Source: an uncultured candidate division WWE3 bacterium
GTDB taxonomy: Bacteria > Patescibacteriota > WWE3 > UBA101185 > UBA10185
DNA length: 64,000 nucleotides
Direction of reading: 5' to 3'
Assembly (NCBI GenBank): GCA_903879985.1
Contig: CAIRNR010000007.1
Coordinates: 216,079 to 280,078 of the forward strand
Shown here: positions 30,709 to 47,395 of the stretch, piece after piece
Layout of the letters: every line of letters starts with the position of its first letter
Position numbering within the stretch: position 1 is the first letter of the stretch
Notes under the pieces: generated by a model
What the model was told of the DNA's origin: nothing
The model's database searches: none
What the model saw: the letters and a program-made list of their open reading frames with translations, nothing else
Made by a program: the position numbers and the translations under genes

Positions 30709-30788
30709 ATTTTAATTCTATCATCTGAGATGATCTGTCGCTAGGCAACAGACCATCCGAGATTTTAAGTTACGAGATAAGTCTAGAA

Positions 30789-32987
30789 TTATCTTCTAGG
30801 TCTAAAACCGCCTCTGTCTCCACCGCGATCGCCACTATGTCCACGTGGTGCACCACCGCGATCGTTTGTATTTTCATAGGCATCGCCCATATCAATAGCT
30901 TTTTTAGACAAACTGATTTTTCCGTCATTACCAAGACCGACAACTTTTACCTTAACGGCATCACCTGGTTTAAACCATTCGCGAACGTCTTTAACATAAG
31001 AATCGGCTATTTCACTTACGTGTAATAAACCAACGCGGCCTGGTAAAATTTCGACCAAAGCACCAAAGTCTAATAAGTCTTTTACAACACCATCGTAGGT
31101 ATCGCCAACTTCTAAATCTCTGGTTAAACCGTCAACGATTTGTAATGCTTTTTCAGCTCCTGATTTATCAACTGCTGTTATTACAACTGTTCCGTCTTCT
31201 TCAATAGAAATTTCGGCTCCGGTTGTTTCTTGGATTTCTTTAATTACTTTTCCGCCTGTACCAATGACCATTCCAATTTTAGAAGGATCAATTTTGATTC
31301 TTAACATTTTTGGAGCGTAATCAGAAACAGCTTCTTTTGGTTTACTAATTGTTTTTTCCATTGAGTCCAAAACAACCATACGACCTGTTTTAGATTGAGC
31401 AATAACTTCATTTAAAACATTCATTGGCATTCCTGGCACCTTCATATCGCATTGAATTGCTGTAACACCTTCGCGGGTTCCGGTCATCTTAAAGTCCAAG
31501 AAACCACTAAAGTCTTCTTCTCCAGCCAAATCAGTAATTACTTTGTATTTAGTAAAGTCATAATCACTAACCATTAATCCCATTGCAACACCACCAACCA
31601 TAGCTTTAATAGGTACACCTGCGTCCATAAGGGCTAAGGTTGAACCACATGTTGCGGCCATTGAAGATGATCCATTTGATGAAAGTATTTCTGATACCAA
31701 AACTACTGTATATGGAAATTCTTCTTGGTTTGGCATTACAGCTTTTAAGGCTTTTTCTGCAATCATTCCGTGACCAATTTCACGACCTTTTGGTGAACCA
31801 AATCTTCCAATTTCACCTGTTGAGAATGGAGGAAAGTTATAGTAATGCAAAAATCTTTTACTTCTTTCGCCATACATATCTTGAACTAAAAGTTCCATAG
31901 TAGGAGAACCTAATGTAGCAACTGTTAAAGCTTGTGTTTCACCTCTAAAGAACAAGGCACTTCCGTGTGTTCTTGGTAATACAGAAACTCGTGAGGATAA
32001 AGGTCTGATTTCGGTTACGGATCTTCCATCAATTCTTGTTCCGTCGTTTAATACTTTGTTTCTAATAACTGTTTTTTCGGCAGCATCAAGTGCGGCTTGC
32101 ATATCAACTTTTTTGTAAGTACCTTCAAATTTCTTGAAAAGTTCTTCGGCTAAAGCGGCTTTTGCTGCAACTCTTTTACTTTTGTCAAAACCGGTACTGA
32201 ACATTTCAGTAAGCTTGGCATCGGCAAATTCACTAACAGCTTTTGCAAGTTCTGCTGTCACAGCATGTGAGATATAAGCGTATTTTTCGTGAGTTGGATT
32301 TACTTCATTAGCGAAATCTTCAACAAGATCTAATAATGTATCCATACTATCGCGAACAAAGTTTATAGCTTCTAATAACTTTGTTTCTGGCAATACGTTC
32401 ATTCCTGCTTCGATTGCTAAAAATCTTTTTTCACGTCCAACAAAAGAAACTAACATATCCATTTCGGATTTTGTTTCTAAGTCATCAACATTTGGGCACA
32501 TTACAAGTTTTCCGTCTATTAAACCAACTCTTCCTGAAGCCATAGGGCCTTTCCAAGGAACGTTAGAAGCTGTTAAAGCAGCTGATGTAGCAACCATTGC
32601 TAAGAATTCTGGATCAGCAGTTTTATCTAAAGATAAGACCGTAGCAACAACTTGAACTTCATCTGCATAATCTTTTGGAAATAATGGTCTAATTGCATGG
32701 TCAATTGCTCTTTGAGCAATAATAGCGTCGTCTGAACCTTTTCCATCTCTTTTTACAAATCTTGAACTCTTAATTGTTCCACTGGAGTAAAGTTTTTCTT
32801 CGTAGTTAACGGTCAATGGGAAAAAATCTATATCTGGAGTAGCTTCACCTGAAACAACAGTTAACAATACAACGGTATCGCCATATGAAGCTTTAACAGC
32901 CATATTAGCGCGTGGTGCAAGTTCGCCTGTTTCCAATACCAATTTTTTACCAGCGAATTCTATCTCTTTTTTTACGATTTTATTCAT
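30789..32987 (-). CDS. pnp: Polyribonucleotide nucleotidyltransferase (PNPase)
   Basis: Two RNase PH domains, then KH and S1 domains, then an unusual RGG/RG-rich tail (RGGAPRGHSGDRGGDRGGFRPRR). Confidence 0.97.
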   Translation of the reverse strand: MNKIVKKEIEFAGKKLVLETGELAPRANMAVKASYGDTVVLLTVVSGEATPDIDFFPLTVNYEEKLYSSGTIKSSRFVKRDGKGSDDAIIAQRAIDHAIRPLFPKDYADEVQVVATVLSLDKTADPEFLAMVATSAALTASNVPWKGPMASGRVGLIDGKLVMCPNVDDLETKSEMDMLVSFVGREKRFLAIEAGMNVLPETKLLEAINFVRDSMDTLLDLVEDFANEVNPTHEKYAYISHAVTAELAKAVSEFADAKLTEMFSTGFDKSKRVAAKAALAEELFKKFEGTYKKVDMQAALDAAEKTVIRNKVLNDGTRIDGRSVTEIRPLSSRVSVLPRTHGSALFFRGETQALTVATLGSPTMELLVQDMYGERSKRFLHYYNFPPFSTGEIGRFGSPKGREIGHGMIAEKALKAVMPNQEEFPYTVVLVSEILSSNGSSSMAATCGSTLALMDAGVPIKAMVGGVAMGLMVSDYDFTKYKVITDLAGEEDFSGFLDFKMTGTREGVTAIQCDMKVPGMPMNVLNEVIAQSKTGRMVVLDSMEKTISKPKEAVSDYAPKMLRIKIDPSKIGMVIGTGGKVIKEIQETTGAEISIEEDGTVVITAVDKSGAEKALQIVDGLTRDLEVGDTYDGVVKDLLDFGALVEILPGRVGLLHVSEIADSYVKDVREWFKPGDAVKVKVVGLGNDGKISLSKKAIDMGDAYENTNDRGGAPRGHSGDRGGDRGGFRPRR

Positions 32988-33124: not shown

Positions 33125-33394
33125 TTATTTAGACAACTCTAACTTTTCAGCGACTTTAGTGTATCTATCTTCATCTTTCTTTTTAAGATAGGACAAAAGT
33201 CTTCTTCTTTTATTAACCATTTGTAATAACCCTCTTCTTGAGTGGTTATCTTTTTTATGTAACTTTAAATGGTCGGAAAGTTTAGTTATACGCTCATTCA
33301 ATATTGCGACTTGAACCTCTGGAGATCCTGTGTCGGCGTCATGCAATCTATTGCCTCTTATTATTTGTGCTTTTTTTTCTTTTTGTAGAGCCAT
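33125..33394 (-). CDS. rpsO: 30S ribosomal protein S15
   Basis: [60 protein letters not shown]. The start is taken at the internal Met (M8 of the ORF-track entry), and coordinates follow the ORF track. Confidence 0.92.
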
Positions 33395-33438: not shown

Positions 33439-34086
33439 CTAAATACCCGCTTTATACATAGCACCGCCCAATAAAGCCTTAGCAGCTCTGCGGTCTAGGT
33501 TTAAACCCCAAATTCCAAAGGTATTAAGTATTAAAAGACTGAGATTTTCCTTTGAAATATCGATTAAATTTACCTTACCGTACTTTGTATTTTTATCAGT
33601 ATTATCAATGTTTACAACAGTTGCCTCTTTTAAATTAGCTTCCATATCTGAATATGTTTGTCCAAGATCCTCTAAGGTCTGAGAACCAATTACAAATATA
33701 AGGTCGAAGTCAAAACCCTTTAAACTGGATGTTATCTTTGAGAAATCAAAGTTTTTGCTCATGGGACTTAAGGTTAGGTATAAAACGTCGTTTTCAGTTG
33801 TGTATTGAACTTTTGAAGCTGGAGTATTTGAATAGTCAACGGCTACAACAAGCTCGCGTCTTCCTGTATCAGCGGTTAATTCTTCTCTTGAGATGATGTC
33901 GGGAAACTCATCCGGTGTTTTACCGGGATAAATTAAGGAAACATTCTTTTCAGCGTTTTTTAAAAGGTAGTAAAGGCCAACACCTGCAGCATATGCTTCA
34001 GGACCGGCAAGTTTTGACGGTATAACAGCTATTCTCTTGGCTGATGCTAAAAGCTCAGCAATTTGATTCTTTTCTTCTGTATTCAT
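33439..34086 (-). CDS. Degenerate DHH-family (NrnA-like) domain protein that lacks the catalytic DHH motif and the DHHA1 domain
   Basis: Collinear with B. subtilis NrnA residues roughly 10-210 ([25 protein letters not shown] vs [20 protein letters not shown]; [15 protein letters not shown] vs KAAELIYAGIVGDTG). However, DHH is replaced by DNT and DPD by GPE. The syntenic position matches nrnA downstream of the infB/rbfA cluster in other bacteria. Confidence 0.4.
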
Positions 34087-34174
34087 AGTTAAATTGGGCT
34101 GAAATTGGTTTACGCCGGTATTGTACCCGAATAGCCCTATAGTGTCAAATCGCGAGGCTGCGTGACAAAAAGAA

Positions 34175-34217
34175 AAGACTCCGATGAACCAGCAGTTTTG
34201 CGGTTGATCGGAGTCTT
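34175..34217 (-). terminator. Intrinsic terminator: perfect 11-bp stem, 21-nt loop, T-run on the minus strand
   Basis: aagactccgat...atcggagtctt is followed on the minus strand by tttctttttg, immediately 3' of the 253-aa gene. Confidence 0.6.
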
Positions 34218-34226
34218 ACATAACCA

Positions 34227-34988
34227 TTACTTTGTGATCTGCATAGATCCAAAGCCCTTCAAATTCTCTGCCAAAATATAAACATCGGGCAGCATTTCAA
34301 GAAACTTATCACTATCGCCAAAAGGGGTTTCGCCAAAGGAATTATTACCATCCTTGCGAATTCCTCCAACAAATATGCGTCCATCTTCCCGACGAAAGGC
34401 CACTGTTACAATCCCAAATTCGGCGTCGTTCCAGTTTTTAAAGTTCTCTTCCCAAATGCTTTTTGCGTCATTGCGTAAGCATGCCGCAATTTCTCCCAAA
34501 CGTACCCAGACAAAAGTACAATCTGGAATTTCCTTCAGCTTTACGCTATGCAAAAGCTTACAATGTATGGATAAAGTATTTACTACCTCCGTTTTCATAG
34601 CGGGGGGCTGCCGTCGGTGCGAAATCCCTAAGCGAGATAAAAATCGCTTCCAGGTGTATTTGCTAAATAAGCCTGGAGTTTCATTCACAGCGCCAGCAAA
34701 CTCAAGCATACGAATATGCAGTTCTAATACATCGGCCACAACTGGACCTTTGACTTCTATAATATAAACCCGTTCTTGATTCAGGTTATAGTCAATGCGC
34801 CCAATTCCGAGTGCGGTATTAAACGCGTAAACCCGGGAAACTTGATTGGTATAGGGCATTATCGTTAACCCGCTTAAACGTAAACCTTTTTCTAGGATAA
34901 AATCCCTTACAGGCGATGTGGTCAACACACATTTTGTTGAACCATCATCAGAAACTAAAATCCATGACTGTGTCATGATTCTCTCCAT
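34227..34988 (-). CDS. Hypothetical cytoplasmic protein (253 aa); possible PD-(D/E)xK-like motif
   Basis: No TM helix. GC and codon usage are richer in CTG/CGC/GCG than the flanking ribosomal genes. GRIDYN...(13 aa)...YIIEVKG resembles a D...ExK nuclease core, which is speculative. It has its own terminator. Confidence 0.45.
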   Translation of the reverse strand: MERIMTQSWILVSDDGSTKCVLTTSPVRDFILEKGLRLSGLTIMPYTNQVSRVYAFNTALGIGRIDYNLNQERVYIIEVKGPVVADVLELHIRMLEFAGAVNETPGLFSKYTWKRFLSRLGISHRRQPPAMKTEVVNTLSIHCKLLHSVKLKEIPDCTFVWVRLGEIAACLRNDAKSIWEENFKNWNDAEFGIVTVAFRREDGRIFVGGIRKDGNNSFGETPFGDSDKFLEMLPDVYILAENLKGFGSMQITK

Positions 34989-35113
34989 TTTTGATCCGCC
35001 ATAACTTTGTTACGGTCGGTCTATTTTCTCACCGCGTGAGATTTGATTTCTGGATTATAGGTTAAACATAGCGAAAGTGCAAACCCATAGCATTGAGAAC
35101 TGGCAGAATTAGG

Positions 35114-35162
35114 CGCAAAAAAAGGCAGCTTGTGTTCCTGGCGGGGAAGACAAACTGCCTTT
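35114..35162 (-). terminator. Intrinsic terminator (8-bp stem aaaggcag/ctgccttt, then a T-run on the minus strand)
   Basis: Located 7 nt downstream of the stop of the 211-aa membrane-protein gene. Confidence 0.55.
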
Positions 35163-35168
35163 ACTGAC

Positions 35169-35804
35169 TTAATCTAACTGTGTATCACTTCGGGTATAAA
35201 TTTTACCATCGACTTTTAATACGAGTAATCCCTGATTATATTGCGTTTCATGATCCAGGGTTACCACAAACTGCGTATTGATGAGCGCACCTTCGATTTT
35301 GCTTTGAATAAGCTTAGTCGCATCTTTCATGTACAAATGTACGCGAGCTTCCTTAAGCAAAATTCTGATTTCACCGGATGCGGTTTTTCCATCAATCAAA
35401 GCTTTTGTAAAATCGCTAATCGCCTTGTTCAAACCACCACTCCAATGCAACTGTGTTGATACAATATGCATTTCGCAGCGGTAGTGGATATATGCACATA
35501 TTGGCTGGACAGTCATGAGCAATAAGCCAGCTACACATATGACAATAACTATGCCAAAGACAATCATCAAAAACATCTCGTACAGAGTGCCCTTATTGTC
35601 TGGCATAGTGTCAATGGTAGACCACACAAATAATCGCATAATACTGACCAACACGATCATCAGCGGAATCATGCGAATCGCGCCTGGTGTATTGAACTCG
35701 GTCCAATAAAACTTAGGAAAACTAATCATCACATACCTATCCTTCTGCCCTAACGGCATCATCATATTTTTATTGGGTTTGATAGGCCTAACGCCTCCGC
35801 CCAA
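35169..35804 (-). CDS. Hypothetical membrane protein: 2 TM helices plus a roughly 110-aa C-terminal soluble domain (bacterial PH-domain-like architecture)
   Basis: TM helices at roughly aa 40-63 and 76-110. The C-terminal domain is of unknown function. It has its own promoter, operator and terminator. Confidence 0.5.
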   Translation of the reverse strand: MGGGVRPIKPNKNMMMPLGQKDRYVMISFPKFYWTEFNTPGAIRMIPLMIVLVSIMRLFVWSTIDTMPDNKGTLYEMFLMIVFGIVIVICVAGLLLMTVQPICAYIHYRCEMHIVSTQLHWSGGLNKAISDFTKALIDGKTASGEIRILLKEARVHLYMKDATKLIQSKIEGALINTQFVVTLDHETQYNQGLLVLKVDGKIYTRSDTQLD

Positions 35805-35926
35805 TTTTTGAGTGCTTGAACCATTCGGTTTTTAAAGAGCTTTCCGCCAAAAGCCTCATACAAGCAAACTGCGCTCCATAGCGTTGTGAAACGCAAATTG
35901 CCTGTATGAATACTAAAGGGGAAATA

Positions 35927-35982
35927 TTTGTATTCCATTGGAATACAAAGGAATTATGCTCCAAATCGTGCTTTTTGTCAAC
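35927..35982 (-). promoter_or_regulatory. Sigma70-like promoter (TTGACA-18-CATAAT, minus strand) immediately followed by a 23-bp perfect palindrome (operator candidate)
   Basis: The minus strand reads ttgaca aaaaagcacgatttggag cataat, then tcc, then tttgtattccaAtggaatacaaa. The palindrome has 11-bp arms around a single central base and spans about -6 to +17. It lies about 120 nt upstream of the 211-aa gene. Confidence 0.45.
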
Positions 35983-36053
35983 CTATAGCATTTATATCTG
36001 AGGCAAACGATATTACTACTCAATATCTAGAAAATGGAAAATTATTTGGAAAC

Positions 36054-37550
36054 TTATAAAACTTCAATCCAATAACCAGCCTTAATATCATCAAACTGAG
36101 GCTTCAAGAAAACACCACACTCAACATCCTTACCTACAACGGTAACTTCGTCTTTACCACGTTTAAGGTTTCTAATAGCACCGGTATACAAAGATGTATC
36201 ACCGTCTACTAAAGTGGATGGGTCTTTATCATAAACAGAAACTCGCGTATTTGGCTTTAAAGCTCCGGCAATAACTCTACTACCTGCAACCAAATCACCG
36301 GACTGTAATTTAAATGTTTTTAAAACTTGGGCACGACCTTTAATTTTTAATTCTTCTTTTAATGCAGTGCCTTCAAGCAATTTTTCGGCATCATCGATGA
36401 GATCGTAAATTGTTTTATAACTTTTAACTGTAACCTTATTATTAAGAGCTAAATCGGCAACTGCGGTTGGTATTCTCACGTTGAAACCGATGACTACACC
36501 ACCACGGCTACTTTGAGCTAAAACAACATCGGATTCTGTAACGTCGCCTGTACCTGAGAATAAAAATTTTAATGCATATGTGGCTTCGACCGAGGATGTA
36601 ACTAAATTAGCTAGACTTCCTTTAACAGCTTCTAATGTGCCATAAGTATCAGCTTTTAAAACAACAGCAACTGTCTTTTTTGAGTTTTTGCCGATTATTT
36701 CTACTTGGTTCTCATCTACAGTCAACGAGGCAAGTTCACTACCTTCAGTAACTAATAAATCTCCAACGTGAGGTACTTGGCTAAATCCAAATATTTGAAC
36801 CGGAGTTGAAGGACCTGCTGATTTAATAGGTAAACCTTTGTCGTCTAGTAATGATTTAATTTTTGCTACATAACCACTTGCAGTTATTTTATCGCCTACG
36901 TTAAGCACGCCATTACGAACAATAACGGATACATTAACACCGCGTTTGCGATCTAAGAAAGATTCAATGATTACAGCTTCTAACTCGTTTTCGACACTTC
37001 CTTTAATGGGATTAAGATCAGCTATTAGCAAGATAGCGTCTAAAAGTTTATCAATGTTTGTTTTATTTTTTGCAGAGACTTCTATACACACAACATCGCC
37101 ACCCCAATCCTCAACCTGCACACCTTCAGATGCCAATTCTTGTTTTATTTTCTGGGCATCTGCCCCGTTAGCGTCCATTTTATTAATAGCGACTATCATA
37201 GGAACTTGTGCAGCGTGGATATGTTGAATAGCTTCTTTGGTTTGTGGCATAACGCCTTCGTCTGCAGCCACAACTAATATGCAAATATCGGCAGCTCTAC
37301 CACTTCGTGCGCGCATTTGAGTAAAAGCCGCGTGGCCTGGGGTATCGATAAATGTTACTTTTTGGTCTTTGTAGGTGATTTGGTAAGCGCCAATATGTTG
37401 GGTTATTCCACCATATTCTTTGGCTTGAACATCTGTGTGACGGATTGCGTCAAGTATGCTGGTTTTGCCATGATCGACGTGACCCATGACTGCAACAATA
37501 GGCGGACGTATCCCATCTTTAATTGTGTTTGTAATTTCATTTTTTGCCAT
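36054..37550 (-). CDS. infB: Translation initiation factor IF-2 (short form, 498 aa, no N-terminal extension)
   Basis: G-domain AVMGHVDHGKTSILD, DTPGHAAF, NKMD, followed by the beta-barrel and C-terminal domains. Confidence 0.95.
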   Translation of the reverse strand: MAKNEITNTIKDGIRPPIVAVMGHVDHGKTSILDAIRHTDVQAKEYGGITQHIGAYQITYKDQKVTFIDTPGHAAFTQMRARSGRAADICILVVAADEGVMPQTKEAIQHIHAAQVPMIVAINKMDANGADAQKIKQELASEGVQVEDWGGDVVCIEVSAKNKTNIDKLLDAILLIADLNPIKGSVENELEAVIIESFLDRKRGVNVSVIVRNGVLNVGDKITASGYVAKIKSLLDDKGLPIKSAGPSTPVQIFGFSQVPHVGDLLVTEGSELASLTVDENQVEIIGKNSKKTVAVVLKADTYGTLEAVKGSLANLVTSSVEATYALKFLFSGTGDVTESDVVLAQSSRGGVVIGFNVRIPTAVADLALNNKVTVKSYKTIYDLIDDAEKLLEGTALKEELKIKGRAQVLKTFKLQSGDLVAGSRVIAGALKPNTRVSVYDKDPSTLVDGDTSLYTGAIRNLKRGKDEVTVVGKDVECGVFLKPQFDDIKAGYWIEVL

Positions 37551-37593: not shown

Positions 37594-38715
37594 TTACTGA
37601 GCTTGAGTATCTAAACTATCTTCAGCTTTTTCTTCTGTAGCTTCTTCGGATTTTGGTTTTTCTTCATGTCTAATTTCGGAATCCCAAACACCAACGATTC
37701 TTGCGTTTTCTTTAGCTTCTTCTTTTTGTGCTACTGTTTGTTCATTTCCACCGAATGCCCCGACAATTCCTTTGATATCAATCTTCCATTTGGTTAGTTT
37801 GTTAGCAAGTCTTGCGTTTTGACCTTCTTTACCAATGGCTAAACTTTGCTGTTCTTCTGGAACGGTTACAATGGCACGTTTGTTTTCTTTGTCTAATTCA
37901 ACATCGGTAACTTTTGCTGGAGAAAGTGCTGCAGCAATAAATTTTTCAGTTGATAAGTGATAAGGCAATATATCGATCTTTTCGCCGAATAATTCGGAAA
38001 TAATTGCTTGAACACGAACACCTTTTTGTCCAACGCAACTACCTACTGGATCAACTTTGTCGTCTTTTGAAAATACGGCCATTTTAGTTCTTGAACCGGC
38101 TTCACGGGCGATAGCTTCGATAACTACAACGCCTGAAGCAATTTCTGGAACTTCTTGTTCGAATAGTCTAACAACAAACTGAGGATCTGAACGGCTAACA
38201 ATTACTTCAGTTCCACGGGATGATTCTTTGATATCTTTAACCAAAACCTTTAGTCTTTGATTTATTCTATAATGTTCAGATTGAACTTGTTCGCCTGAAG
38301 GCATAACACCTTGAGTTCTAGTTTTACCTAAATCTAATGTAACAAGACCATTATCTAATCTGAAAACGTGACCAGTAACAATAGTTCCGATTTTAGCTTT
38401 AAATTCAGTGATAATAACGTCCTTTTCAGTTTCTCTAATCTTTTGCAATATAACTTGTTTGGCTGTTTGAGCTGCGATACGACCAAACCCTGCTGGTGTA
38501 ACATCGCGACCATCTCTTATAACTTTTACTTCACCTGAGTCTGGATTAAGATCAACTGATATTTCTTCTATGGCGACTTCTTCACCGTTTTCTTTTCGGT
38601 CTTTTTTGTACGCCGTAGCCAGAGCCGATTGTACCGACTCTAGAACACTACTAACAGAGATTCCCCGCTCAGTAGCAACTTGATTTATCGCTGCGCTAAA
38701 TTCTGATATTGCCAT
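37594..38715 (-). CDS. nusA: Transcription termination/antitermination factor NusA
   Basis: N-terminal domain, S1 domain, and two KH domains (VGSCVGQKGVRVQAI, AIGKEGQNARLANKLT), with an acidic tail. Confidence 0.95.
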   Translation of the reverse strand: MAISEFSAAINQVATERGISVSSVLESVQSALATAYKKDRKENGEEVAIEEISVDLNPDSGEVKVIRDGRDVTPAGFGRIAAQTAKQVILQKIRETEKDVIITEFKAKIGTIVTGHVFRLDNGLVTLDLGKTRTQGVMPSGEQVQSEHYRINQRLKVLVKDIKESSRGTEVIVSRSDPQFVVRLFEQEVPEIASGVVVIEAIAREAGSRTKMAVFSKDDKVDPVGSCVGQKGVRVQAIISELFGEKIDILPYHLSTEKFIAAALSPAKVTDVELDKENKRAIVTVPEEQQSLAIGKEGQNARLANKLTKWKIDIKGIVGAFGGNEQTVAQKEEAKENARIVGVWDSEIRHEEKPKSEEATEEKAEDSLDTQAQ

Positions 38716-39763: not shown

Positions 39764-39776
39764 ACAGTGTGTATTC

Positions 39777-39795
39777 TATCACCTACGGTGATCGG
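39777..39795. promoter_or_regulatory. 19-nt dyad TATCACCTACGGTGATCGG (copy 1), 13 nt upstream of the dnaJ-like ATG
   Basis: Identical 19-mer to 47377-47395. The inverted repeat is ATCACC-TAC-GGTGAT, and the GTGATAGAAT part doubles as an extended -10 box. Confidence 0.5.
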
Positions 39796-39847
39796 TCGCC
39801 AAAGGCAACAGAGCACGTTAAGTGGGTTGATTAGTGGGTTTTTGTGA

Positions 39848-39889
39848 CAAAAAAAGACCCTGATAAGTTGGTTTGCTTATGCAGGGTCT
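39848..39889 (-). terminator. Intrinsic terminator (8-bp stem agaccctg/cagggtct, 19-nt loop, 7-U run on the minus strand)
   Basis: Directly 3' of the 154-aa gene. Confidence 0.55.
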
Positions 39890-39902
39890 TGCTTACTATT
39901 TT

Positions 39903-40367
39903 TTATTCGTAACCACGGTGACCGTTATATTTCTCGGTGTGGTAACGAACTTGGGCTTCAACTTCTTCGGGCGGTTCTTCGTCAGGGTCTTGTTCGGCAT
40001 TGCGAGGATCGCCTTCAGTATATGCGGCATCTTCTAACGCAGCCATTTCCCATCGCCAAACAGCAGCATCAATCTGGGTAGCAAAACATCGAAGTTGACC
40101 TTGCGGATCCCGCGGAAGCTTTTTAAGCGTAACAACAGCTGTGGTATCAGTCCAAACAATATCATTGAAAATCGGGCTGATCACACTTTTCGTACCTTCC
40201 ATATCCCTTGTATTTGGATGTAGTGTTATCCACAATTGTACGGGATCAATACTATCGCGAAATCCCATCCAGCCAATATTTCCCTGATCTAATGTGGTCC
40301 ATTCTTCTCCTAGCGGAGCTTTACGATTCTTTGGGTGCACTATAACCTCTCTCTTTCCGTATCGCAA
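39903..40367 (-). CDS. Hypothetical protein (154 aa) with an acidic C-terminal tail
   Basis: Elevated GC. Own promoter (TTGTGT-17-TACAAT on the minus strand at about 40406-40434) and own terminator. No recognisable domain. A 5-bp inverted repeat gtatc...gatac abuts the ATG in place of an SD. Confidence 0.5.
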   Translation of the reverse strand: MRYGKREVIVHPKNRKAPLGEEWTTLDQGNIGWMGFRDSIDPVQLWITLHPNTRDMEGTKSVISPIFNDIVWTDTTAVVTLKKLPRDPQGQLRCFATQIDAAVWRWEMAALEDAAYTEGDPRNAEQDPDEEPPEEVEAQVRYHTEKYNGHRGYE

Positions 40368-40455
40368 TTGATACGCGCAACTTTATTAGTCAGCTGTTGC
40401 TAGCTCTGATTTGTGGTGATTGTAGCAAAAATCCGATGTTTACACAAGCTATAGG

Positions 40456-40484
40456 TTGACTGAAGTTTGTTAAGGATATACAAT
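40456..40484 (+). promoter_or_regulatory. Strong sigma70 promoter TTGACT-17-TACAAT
   Basis: ttgact at 40456-61, a 17-nt spacer, tacaat at 40479-84, about 36 nt upstream of the SD and ATG of the 97-aa gene. Confidence 0.55.
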
Positions 40485-40520
40485 GCTGAAAATAGCCAGA
40501 TAAACCAAAAGGAGAGAAAA

Positions 40521-40814
40521 ATGGCACTTAAAGGAACAATGATCTTAAACGGTCACTACAACATCACGCAGGCACCATCGCTGGATGACATAGTAGGTTC
40601 ATTAATATCAGCGGGTGCAAATCGGAAGTCACTGAGTTTTATCACAAGCACGGGATTAATCATCCGCAATGTGGCTATAAAGTCATTAGCTCGCGAAGAT
40701 GGCTCAGGCAAACGGTATGTATTCGAAGGCGAATTCGTCGGAACTGCCGGAACAATAAAAGGCTATTTTGACGTCGCCAACAGGGTGGGATTCTGTAACA
40801 TCACAGTAGAATAA
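40521..40814 (+). CDS. Hypothetical small protein (97 aa from the ATG preceded by AAAGGAGAGAAAA)
   Basis: Good SD. The longer ORF from 40467 lacks an RBS. Probably a beta-rich protein with no recognisable family. A terminator follows. Confidence 0.5.
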   Translation: MALKGTMILNGHYNITQAPSLDDIVGSLISAGANRKSLSFITSTGLIIRNVAIKSLAREDGSGKRYVFEGEFVGTAGTIKGYFDVANRVGFCNITVE

Positions 40815-40840
40815 CCCGCAAGTAACAAAAAGGTCTACTA

Positions 40841-40888
40841 GTTCGGAACAAATCCAACAGTAGGCCTTTTCTTTTTCCCAAGCTTTCT
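40841..40888 (+). terminator. Intrinsic terminator (ggtctact/agtaggcc stem with one G-U pair, then TTTTCTTTTT)
   Basis: Located 27 nt after the stop of the 97-aa gene. Confidence 0.5.
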
Positions 40889-40907
40889 AACATTCAAAAA
40901 TCATTAT

Positions 40908-40937
40908 CAAAAAACAAAAGACCCCGCTTTCGCGAGG
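40908..40937 (-). terminator. Intrinsic terminator for hup (CCUCGC-GAAA-GCGGGG stem-loop plus a U-run on the minus strand)
   Basis: A GAAA tetraloop hairpin is followed by ucuuuuguuuuuug on the minus strand, about 55 nt downstream of the hup stop. Confidence 0.55.
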
Positions 40938-40991
40938 CCCAATGTTTTTAATCGACTCAAAATTTAAATCGAAAAAGTCAGAAAGATTACT

Positions 40992-47363: not shown

Positions 47364-47376
47364 ATATCTTGGATTT

Positions 47377-47395
47377 TATCACCTACGGTGATCGG
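47377..47395. promoter_or_regulatory. 19-nt dyad TATCACCTACGGTGATCGG (copy 2), 13 nt upstream of the gltX ATG
   Basis: Identical to 39777-39795. GTGATAAAAT, the same 10-mer found upstream of secA, sits 9 nt before the ATG. Confidence 0.5.

What the first reader, a model, noticed from the sequence alone, without database searches (positions are those of the whole stretch)
34087..36053. Two-gene insertion inside the conserved nusA-infB-//-rpsO-pnp cluster, each gene with its own promoter and terminator signals
On the minus strand the order is nusA, infB, [211-aa 2-TM protein], [253-aa soluble protein], degenerate nrnA-like gene, rpsO, pnp. In most bacteria rbfA/truB occupy the stretch between infB and rpsO, and neither is present here. 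The two inserted genes have elevated G+C and a different codon flavour (CTG/CGC/GCG) compared with the flanking translation genes. Each ends in a strong intrinsic terminator (11-bp perfect stem at 34175-34217; 8-bp stem at 35114-35162). The upstream gene has a dedicated TTGACA-18-CATAAT promoter followed by a 23-bp perfect palindrome. The soluble protein carries a possible D...ExK motif (GRIDYN...YIIEVKG). Together this looks like an acquired, autonomously regulated module of unknown function, inserted in an operon that is normally read through. Candidates include a membrane effector plus a nuclease-like partner, or a defence or toxin-type pair.
Basis: partly seen in the sequence, partly recalled or inferred. 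Interest (0 to 1): 0.7.

Follow-up and report, generated by a model that had tools for sequence, protein, structure and literature searches.

The report
Two orphan-gene cassettes inserted after infB
A Saccharibacteria (candidate phyla radiation) genome carries about 1.9 kb of foreign-looking DNA between infB and the next gene, holding two separately transcribed genes of unknown function, at a spot where related genomes also gain genes; this is a real but fairly ordinary accessory-gene islet.

Summary
On the minus strand the order is nusA, infB, a 2-TM protein (geneA, 197-211 aa), a soluble protein (geneB, 249-253 aa), a catalytically dead DHH/NrnA-like gene, rpsO, pnp. In 12 related Saccharibacteria loci that hold both genes, infB is followed within about 70-145 bp by the DHH-like gene. 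About 1.9 kb (34149-36053) is therefore an insertion. Both genes have atypical codon use, a sigma-70-like promoter and a strong terminator.

- The site is not inside a read-through operon. A conserved promoter (TTGACA-CTATAGG-N10-TACAAT) sits directly after infB in the window and in relatives, so this is an operon boundary.
- The site is used repeatedly. Another species shows presence/absence of a different one-gene insertion at the same place.
- The two genes are not a conserved pair. GeneB has only three distant homologues among 1.84 billion representatives, none next to a geneA-like gene.
- The D...ExK motif is not conserved.
- There is no supported match to nucleases, defence systems, RbfA, TruB, phages or plasmids.

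Best reading: two moron-like promoter-ORF-terminator cassettes gained horizontally. Their function is unassigned. A second such islet lies 4 kb away and shares the promoter 13-mer GCTATAGGTTGAC.

The parts
36054..37550 (-). infB (498 aa), the last gene of the upstream nusA-infB unit. No terminator follows it.
   Evidence: (Pfam GTP_EFTU/IF-2).
34149..36053 (-). The inserted segment (about 1.9 kb). It runs from the base after the infB stop codon to just upstream of the ancestral DHH-gene promoter.
   Evidence: Twelve relatives that hold both genes have infB and the DHH-like gene 70-145 bp apart. Composition is atypical.
35969..36053 (-). Left-junction spacer. In strain contig L004 this patch is only about 60% identical, while the flanks are about 99.9% identical. 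Within the patch, the 20 nt AATGCTATAGGTTGACAAAA are invariant.
35953..35989 (-). GeneA promoter: GCTATAGG (35982-35989) abutting the -35 TTGACA (35976-35981), a 17-nt spacer, and the -10 CATAAT (35953-35958).
35927..35949 (-). A 23-bp perfect palindrome, TTTGTATTCCAATGGAATACAAA, overlapping the predicted transcription start. It could be an operator or a 5'-terminal mRNA hairpin.
35841..35924 (-). Structured leader with a core hairpin of 22 pairs (35856-35909). Several pairs are G-U, so the hairpin forms only on the sense RNA. The 196-nt leader folds with z = -5.8.
   Evidence: There is no Rfam family; the best match, tsr25, scores 23.5 bits against a gathering score of 63.
35169..35762 (-). 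GeneA: a 197-aa protein (the longest ORF reaches 35804) with two TM segments and a C-terminal soluble domain of about 110 aa. No homologue was found outside this species.
   Evidence: No hits.
35114..35162 (-). GeneA intrinsic terminator: a 13-pair outer stem with a U-G pair, then U7.
   Evidence: -24.7 kcal/mol, z -5.9.
35054..35091 (-). GeneB promoter: GCTATGGG, TTTGCA, 18-nt spacer, TATAAT. A small palindrome, TCTCACGCGGTGAGA, follows at 35027-35041.
34227..34976 (-). GeneB: a 249-aa soluble protein (the longest ORF reaches 34988). It belongs to a very small family with a conserved C-terminal domain of about 100 aa.
34167..34217 (-). GeneB intrinsic terminator: an 11-bp perfect outer stem plus an inner stem, then UUUUCUUUUU.
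   Evidence: I3; -24.8 kcal/mol, z -5.5.
34120..34148 (-). Ancestral promoter of the DHH-like/rpsO unit: TTGACA-CTATAGG-N10-TACAAT. It is conserved in relatives and is not part of the insertion.
33439..34086 (-). DHH/NrnA-like 215-aa gene with the catalytic motifs lost (NIDNT in place of DHH). It is conserved in Saccharibacteria.
33125..33394 (-). rpsO (S15).
30789..32987 (-). pnp (PNPase).
39764..40991 (.). Second orphan-gene islet, between hup and dnaJ: a 154-aa ORF (39903-40367, -) and a 97-aa ORF (40521-40814, +). Each has its own terminator. The 97-aa ORF has the same GCTATAGGTTGAC promoter signature.

Best explanation
The segment 34149-36053 is a horizontally acquired accessory islet made of two independent cassettes, each consisting of a promoter, one ORF and a terminator. 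This is the architecture described for phage 'morons'. The cassettes sit in a 'safe harbour', the short spacer between the infB stop codon and the conserved promoter of the next unit (DHH-like, rpsO, pnp).

Shown:
- The insertion is absent from all relatives examined.
- Its composition is foreign.
- Each gene has a near-consensus promoter and a strong terminator.
- The downstream core genes keep their ancestral promoter, so the insertion does not disrupt them, and the geneB terminator shields that promoter from read-through.
- The same spacer holds different cargo in other Saccharibacteria.
- The two genes are not a conserved pair.

Inferred:
- Entry was by natural transformation with recombination in the conserved flanks. 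No integrase, transposase, terminal repeats or target duplication are present, and Saccharibacteria are naturally competent.
- GeneA is an inner-membrane hairpin protein with both termini in the cytoplasm. GeneB is a cytoplasmic two-domain protein.
- Biochemical function is not assigned. My guess is strain-level accessory functions in envelope, competitor or phage interactions. The palindrome at the geneA start may act as an operator or as a 5' mRNA-stabilising hairpin.
For: - Insertion: infB is followed by the DHH-like gene within about 70-145 bp in L009, L010, L011, L097, L098, L099, L102, L103, L104, L106 and L107.
- Recurrent site: L101 and L102 have identical flanks, and L101 carries a 680-bp insertion with a 188-aa multi-TM gene starting right after infB. 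L100 has an AAA/DUF4143 gene upstream of the DHH-like gene.
- Ancestral promoter: TTGAC[AG]CTATAGG is retained in the window (34136-34148) and in 8 relatives.
- Foreign composition: GC3 z-scores are +1.9 and +3.0, and codon log-likelihood z is about -2.5.
- Autonomous units.
- Not an artefact: 17 contigs from several samples and assemblers are 99.3-100% identical across the junctions.
- Not an obligate pair: geneB homologues P0004, P0005 and P0006 lie next to an IS30-like transposase and orphan genes, or next to an AddA-like helicase, with no geneA relative nearby.
- Cassette architecture elsewhere: P0005 has its own long-stem terminator. P0004 and neighbouring orphan genes carry CTATAGGTTGAC-N17-TATAAT-type promoters.
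- Shared promoter: the exact 12-mer CTATAGGTTGAC occurs twice in the window, against about 0.01 expected from base composition. Both copies lie in front of atypical orphan genes.
- No mobility signatures were found.
- Competence of Saccharibacteria: PMC10633639.
Against: - No donor or close homologue of geneA was found, so horizontal origin rests on composition and phyletic pattern only.
- The nearest relatives are distant (infB 55-66% identical), so the time of gain and any presence/absence polymorphism within the genus are unknown.
- Promoters and terminators are predictions; there is no expression data.
- Adjacency of the two genes in all 17 contigs is also compatible with a functional pair.
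- The count of promoter-like sites in the region is not above shuffled expectation.
Confidence: 0.72

Rival explanations
1. The two genes form one functional module, such as a defence, abortive-infection or toxin-immunity pair. A membrane effector (geneA) would be controlled by a soluble sensor or enzyme (geneB).
For: The genes are adjacent and co-oriented in all 17 contigs. GeneA is a small 2-TM protein with a cytoplasmic domain. The DNA is accessory and compositionally foreign.
Against: - There is no PADLOC, PHROG, Pfam or NCBIfam hit.
- Each gene has its own promoter and terminator.
- GeneB homologues never have a geneA-like neighbour.
- The proposed D...ExK motif is not conserved.
Confidence: 0.1
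2. GeneB is a DNA-binding regulator. Its conserved C-terminal domain would be a winged-helix-like fold, and it would repress geneA by binding the 23-bp palindrome over the transcription start.
For: - The predicted order of elements is strand-helix-helix-hairpin, with pLDDT 66-82.
- The conserved pattern W-V-x-L-x-E-[IL]-A-x-x-L...W-x-x-[YF]-F resembles MerR/excisionase-type HTH motifs. This resemblance is recalled from memory and is a lead only.
- The perfect palindrome lies at the classical operator position.
Against: - No HTH family or HTH structure was matched by sequence or fold.
- The geneB promoter carries a different, weak palindrome.
- The homologues' neighbourhoods show no comparable palindromes.
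- The same pattern could equally fit a SUKH-like immunity fold.
Confidence: 0.08
3. GeneB is a decayed remnant of the ancestral truB that sits between infB and rpsO in other bacteria, so the segment is a relic and not an insertion.
For: In tblastn, geneB residues 57-138 align with Clostridium TruB residues 56-153 (E 2e-4 to 6e-3 in small search spaces). With TruB as the query, geneB is the best hit in the window.
Against: - Profile-profile comparison gives a probability of 0.45%.
- The TruB HMM scores geneB at -1.1 bits, and 38 of 1000 shuffles do as well. The other family members show nothing.
- The invariant TruB residues, including the catalytic Asp motif, are absent.
- Relatives have no gene at this position.
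- The geneB homologues lie in unrelated contexts.
- The composition is foreign rather than ameliorated.
Confidence: 0.03
4. The ORFs are non-functional: neutral junk DNA or decaying genes that merely persist at a tolerated site.
For: There are almost no homologues and no sequence variation with which to measure selection. One contig truncates geneB at codon 59.
Against: - ORFs of 197 and 249 codons are very unlikely by chance in 38% G+C DNA.
- GC1 exceeds GC2, as in coding sequence.
- GeneB has conserved distant homologues.
- Promoters, SD-like sites and terminators are intact.
Confidence: 0.07

Closest known systems
Phage 'morons' (autonomous promoter-gene-terminator units inserted between conserved genes; concept of Hendrix and colleagues, cited from memory)
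   Same: One ORF is flanked by a sigma-70-type promoter and an intrinsic terminator. The composition differs from that of the neighbours. The unit is inserted between two genes that are adjacent in relatives. No mobility gene is present.
   Different: The host here is a bacterial chromosome of a candidate-phyla-radiation organism, in a translation-gene cluster and not a prophage. No phage genes are nearby, and there is no match in IMG/VR or INPHARED.
Chromosomal hot spots or islets of accessory genes between conserved core genes
   Same: The core flanks are conserved and the cargo varies between lineages at the same spacer (window, L101, L100). The cargo consists of orphan genes.
   Different: The islet is very small (1-2 genes), has no integrase or tRNA, and sits exactly between a stop codon and the next promoter.
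Integron gene cassettes
   Same: Single-ORF units are stacked head to tail at one site.
   Different: Integron cassettes lack promoters and carry attC sites next to an integrase. Here each unit has a promoter and a terminator, and no attC-like repeat family or integrase was found.
infB-rbfA-(nrnA)-truB-ribF-rpsO-pnp cluster of Firmicutes and other bacteria
   Same: The flanks are nusA-infB and rpsO-pnp, with a DHH/NrnA-like gene between them (one search shows the Clostridium order).
   Different: rbfA, truB and ribF are absent here and in all Saccharibacteria relatives examined. The DHH-like gene is truncated and has lost its catalytic motifs.

Membership tests
PD-(D/E)xK nuclease (proposed for geneB) | A conserved D...(D/E)xK catalytic motif on a restriction-endonuclease-like fold | tested here: not met
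   D62, E75 and K77 are replaced by T/E, E/Y and L/Y in homologues. There is no Pfam or PDB sequence hit and no fold hit; the model is of low confidence in this region.
TruB pseudouridine synthase | A match to the TruB profile, including the GHxGTLD catalytic motif | tested here: not met
   hhalign probability is 0.45%. The HMM score of -1.1 bits lies within the range of shuffles. The invariant residues listed are absent. Only a weak pairwise tblastn similarity exists.
RbfA | Sequence similarity to RbfA | tested here: not met
   tblastn of Clostridium RbfA against the window gives no hit better than E = 6.6. Pfam finds nothing.
Known anti-phage defence systems | A match of any component to a PADLOC model | tested here: not met
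   No hits at E <= 1 for geneA or geneB.
Toxin-antitoxin or other obligate two-gene module | Co-transcription, and conserved co-occurrence of the two genes | tested here: not met
   A terminator and a new promoter lie between the genes. The geneB homologues lack a geneA-like neighbour.
Moron-like cassette | Own promoter and own intrinsic terminator flanking one ORF | tested here: met
   By prediction only. Promoters match 11/12 and 10/12 positions. Terminator hairpins have z -5.5 and -5.9.
Moron-like cassette | Composition differs from the neighbours, and the unit is inserted between genes that are adjacent in relatives | tested here: met
Moron-like cassette | Resides in a phage or prophage genome | tested here: not met
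   The flanks are core translation genes. There are no relatives in viral collections.
IS element or transposon | A transposase, terminal inverted repeats and a target-site duplication | tested here: not met
   No transposase domain. No flanking repeats beyond chance-length matches.
Integron cassette | An attC recombination site and a nearby integron integrase | tested here: not met
   No repeated imperfect-palindrome family is shared by the cassette ends. There is no integrase in the ORF list of the window; the neighbouring ORFs were not all annotated.
DHH/NrnA phosphoesterase (downstream 215-aa gene) | The DHH and DxD catalytic motifs plus a DHHA1 domain | tested here: not met
   Homology to NrnA is detectable through relatives (E = 4e-6). 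However, motif III is NIDNT and motif I is absent, and the length is 215 aa against 320 aa. The gene is a degenerate relative.
Known RNA families (geneA leader) | An Rfam model score at or above the gathering threshold | tested here: not met

The most novel reading that the evidence does not exclude
Saccharibacteria and related candidate-phyla-radiation genomes may share a pool of self-contained promoter-ORF-terminator cassettes. These would be marked by a common promoter signature (CTATAGG abutting TTGACA), moved between genomes by natural transformation, and dropped into spacers at operon boundaries. The geneB family would be one such travelling cargo, and the CTATAGG element the binding site of a dedicated regulator that co-controls this accessory pool.
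Probability: 0.2. Interest if true: 0.55.

Novelty: new member of a known kind. Interest (0 to 1): 0.3.

Why it matters
These bacteria have tiny genomes, and about half of their genes are uncharacterised. How they gain and control strain-specific genes is poorly known. This locus gives a clean, small example:
- a defined insertion site at an operon boundary that is reused in different lineages;
- cargo that brings its own transcription signals;
- a promoter motif shared with other orphan genes.

It offers candidate neutral insertion sites and promoters for genetic work in Saccharibacteria. It also adds two protein families that lack any homology-based annotation. It does not reveal a new type of system.

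Tried and rejected
- **Family scans.** Pfam, PHROGs, PADLOC and NCBIfam scans of both proteins and of the geneB family gave nothing.
- **Protein-database searches.** The 5.8-billion-protein word-indexed search found only same-species copies. Adding the distant homologues as a profile found no more. GeneA could therefore not be searched that sensitively.
- **Solved structures by sequence.** PDB sequence searches found nothing relevant.
- **Mobile-element collections.** Viral, phage and plasmid searches found nothing. A metagenome scan for geneB relatives also found nothing.
- **TruB lead.** It was raised by tblastn and rejected by profile and shuffle tests.
- **Promoter signature in viral contigs.** 56 single hits, about what I estimate by chance, so uninformative.
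- **Flanking repeats.** Nothing convincing was found.
- **Literature.** Searches for comparable Saccharibacteria islets found nothing specific.
- **Contig L008.** It fuses geneB codons 1-59 to a prepilin-peptidase C-terminus. I judge it a chimeric assembly or rearranged strain, because the rest of the contig has 45-56% G+C and does not match the window.
Full report
**What is there**

On the minus strand the window reads as follows:
- nusA, 37594-38715
- infB, 36054-37550
- geneA, 35169-35762 (longest ORF to 35804)
- geneB, 34227-34976 (longest ORF to 34988)
- a 215-aa DHH-like gene, 33439-34086
- rpsO, 33125-33394
- pnp, 30789-32987

The same arrangement is present in 17 contigs from several samples and assemblers, including GCA_903994745.1. 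They are 99.3-100% identical to the window, so the arrangement is not an assembly artefact. The closest infB genes in the species-representative genome collection belong to Candidatus Saccharibacteria MAGs and are 63-65% identical.

**Check of the observation**

GeneA has two hydrophobic segments and a C-terminal soluble part of about 110 residues.

Both genes stand out in composition. GC3 is 0.46 and 0.40 against a window mean of 0.286 (sd 0.058). Their codon log-likelihoods are among the lowest of 56 genes.

Both are followed by strong hairpins with U-tracts, at -24.7 and -24.8 kcal/mol and z -5.9 and -5.5.

The geneA promoter TTGACA-17-CATAAT (35981-35953) is one of five 11/12 matches in the whole window. 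The 23-bp perfect palindrome at 35927-35949 is unique. The geneA leader of about 190 nt is unusually structured (z -5.8). Its 22-pair hairpin needs G-U pairs and so exists only in the sense RNA. It matches no Rfam family. GeneB has a weaker promoter, TTTGCA-18-TATAAT.

rbfA and truB are absent from the 64 kb.

**Is it an insertion?**

Yes. In the Saccharibacteria loci that hold both infB and the DHH-like gene, the two lie about 70-145 bp apart and are followed by rpsO and pnp. These are three genome representatives and nine metagenome contigs, with infB 54-66% identical. None of these loci encodes a relative of geneA or geneB.

The DHH-like gene keeps a conserved promoter. The sequence TTGAC[AG]-CTATAGG-N10-TAnAAT begins within a few bases of the infB stop in relatives. 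It is present in the window at 34120-34148, just downstream of the geneB terminator. The inserted DNA is therefore 34149-36053.

In this lineage the site is not inside a read-through operon. It is the boundary between two transcription units, which explains why an insertion is tolerated. The cassette terminators protect the downstream promoter from read-through.

**The site is reused**

Contigs L101 and L102 come from another species and have identical flanks. L101 carries a 680-bp insertion that begins at the end of infB and encodes an unrelated 188-aa multi-TM protein. L102 has the empty site. In L100 an AAA/DUF4143 gene lies upstream of the DHH-like gene.

Within the window's own species, contig L004 is identical except for an 85-bp patch at the left junction (35969-36053). 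The patch is only about 60% identical, and within it the 20 nt AATGCTATAGGTTGACAAAA are invariant. This pattern points to recombination at the spacer and to constraint on the promoter core.

**What are the genes?**

GeneA has no detectable relative outside the species.

GeneB has only three distant relatives among 1.84 billion representative proteins (P0004, P0005, P0006; E 1e-9 to 2e-5). Two share both domains. All share a C-terminal domain of about 100 residues with invariant W, V, A, L, W, F, A, F, GG, G and G positions. The residues of the suggested D...ExK motif vary.

The relatives lie in unrelated neighbourhoods:
- P0005 is beside an IS30-like transposase among orphan genes, upstream of Wzy and glycosyltransferase genes.
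- P0006 is upstream of an AddA-like helicase-nuclease.
- P0004 is on a short contig.

None has a geneA-like neighbour, so the pair is not a conserved module.

No family library, solved-structure sequence, phage, plasmid or viral contig matches either protein. Structure prediction reached usable confidence only for the geneB C-terminal domain (pLDDT 66-82). Fold searches gave nothing significant.

**The TruB lead**

A tblastn screen of all fetched loci aligned geneB residues 57-138 with TruB of three Clostridium genomes. With TruB as the query, geneB was the best hit in the window (E = 3.5e-4). Because truB is the gene expected here in other phyla, I tested this further.

A 57-sequence TruB alignment compared with the geneB family gave an hhalign probability of 0.45%. 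The TruB HMM scored geneB at -1.1 bits, which 38 of 1000 shuffles matched, and the other family members scored no better than their shuffles. The invariant TruB residues are missing. I reject the relic reading.

**Cassette architecture and a shared promoter signature**

Each gene is a promoter-ORF-terminator unit.

A second islet 4 kb away (39764-40991) separates hup from dnaJ, which are 113 bp apart in L011. It holds two more compositionally atypical orphan ORFs, each with its own terminator.

The exact 12-mer CTATAGGTTGAC occurs twice in the window. I estimate about 0.01 expected from base composition. One copy precedes geneA and the other precedes the 97-aa ORF of the second islet. GeneB has the variant GCTATGGGTTTGCA.

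The same arrangement, CTATAGG abutting TTGAC with a -10 box 17 nt downstream, precedes P0004 and orphan genes around P0005 in other genomes. P0005 also has its own long-stem terminator. In viral contigs the signature is no more frequent than I estimate by chance.

**Most likely explanation**

Two moron-like accessory cassettes were gained horizontally and parked at an operon boundary that acts as a recurrent insertion site. There is no integrase, transposase, terminal repeat or target duplication. Saccharibacteria are naturally competent (PMC10633639). Uptake of DNA followed by recombination is therefore the likeliest route; this is an inference.

Function is not assigned. Rival readings are listed with their tests:
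- a functional effector-sensor pair;
- geneB as a regulator acting on the geneA palindrome;
- a TruB relic;
- non-functional DNA.

**Verdict**

This is a new member of a known kind, a small accessory-gene islet with moron-like units. Interest is moderate to low. The shared promoter signature and the reuse of the site are the parts worth following up.

Noticed in passing
window 39764-40991: A second orphan-gene islet lies between hup and dnaJ. It holds a 154-aa ORF (39903-40367, -) and a 97-aa ORF (40521-40814, +), each with its own terminator hairpin. Both have atypical codon use and no family hits. In relative L011, hup and dnaJ are 113 bp apart.
   Followed up: partly
window 35977-35989 and 40448-40460; L089 4977, 5465, 7549; L095 386: The promoter signature (G)CTATAGG directly abuts TTGAC(A/T), with a -10 box 17 nt downstream. 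It is found in front of orphan and accessory genes in the window and in the unrelated genomes that carry geneB homologues. It may be a shared regulator site or an extended -35 element.
   Followed up: partly
window 34120-34148; L009 1908, L011 5513, L097 2218, L098 967, L101 1593, L102 841, L105 112: The promoter TTGAC[AG]CTATAGG-N10-TAnAAT follows the infB stop directly and is conserved across Saccharibacteria, including its spacer sequence. The core TGACACTATAG equals the SP6-type phage RNA polymerase promoter core as I recall it, which is probably a coincidence.
   Followed up: partly
window 39770-39815, 30715-30755, 47370-47395: A shared motif of about 45 nt contains the palindrome TATCACC-TAC-GGTGATC. 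It lies upstream of dnaJ, upstream of the Lon-like AAA gene, and in a third intergenic region. It looks like a heat-shock-type operator.
   Followed up: partly
window 33439-34086: The 215-aa DHH/NrnA-like protein has lost its catalytic motifs (NIDNT in place of DHH, and no DGD motif) and lacks the DHHA1 domain. It is nevertheless conserved next to rpsO in every Saccharibacteria locus examined, which suggests a non-catalytic role.
   Followed up: partly
window 35969-36053 versus L004 2799-2880: An 85-bp patch is only about 60% identical between two strains that are otherwise about 99.9% identical over 4.7 kb. A 20-nt invariant promoter core lies inside it. This suggests a local recombination import or a hypervariable spacer.
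   Followed up: partly
L008 1-4174 (breakpoint at window 34794): This contig fuses geneB codons 1-59 in frame to the C-terminus of a prepilin peptidase. aroC, aroK and dprA follow, at 45-56% G+C. It is seen in two assemblies. It is either a chimeric assembly or a rearranged strain.
   Followed up: partly
L101 985-1551 versus L102: A 680-bp insertion is present in L101 and absent in L102. It carries a 188-aa multi-TM protein and lies at the same infB-proximal spacer in another Saccharibacteria species.
   Followed up: yes
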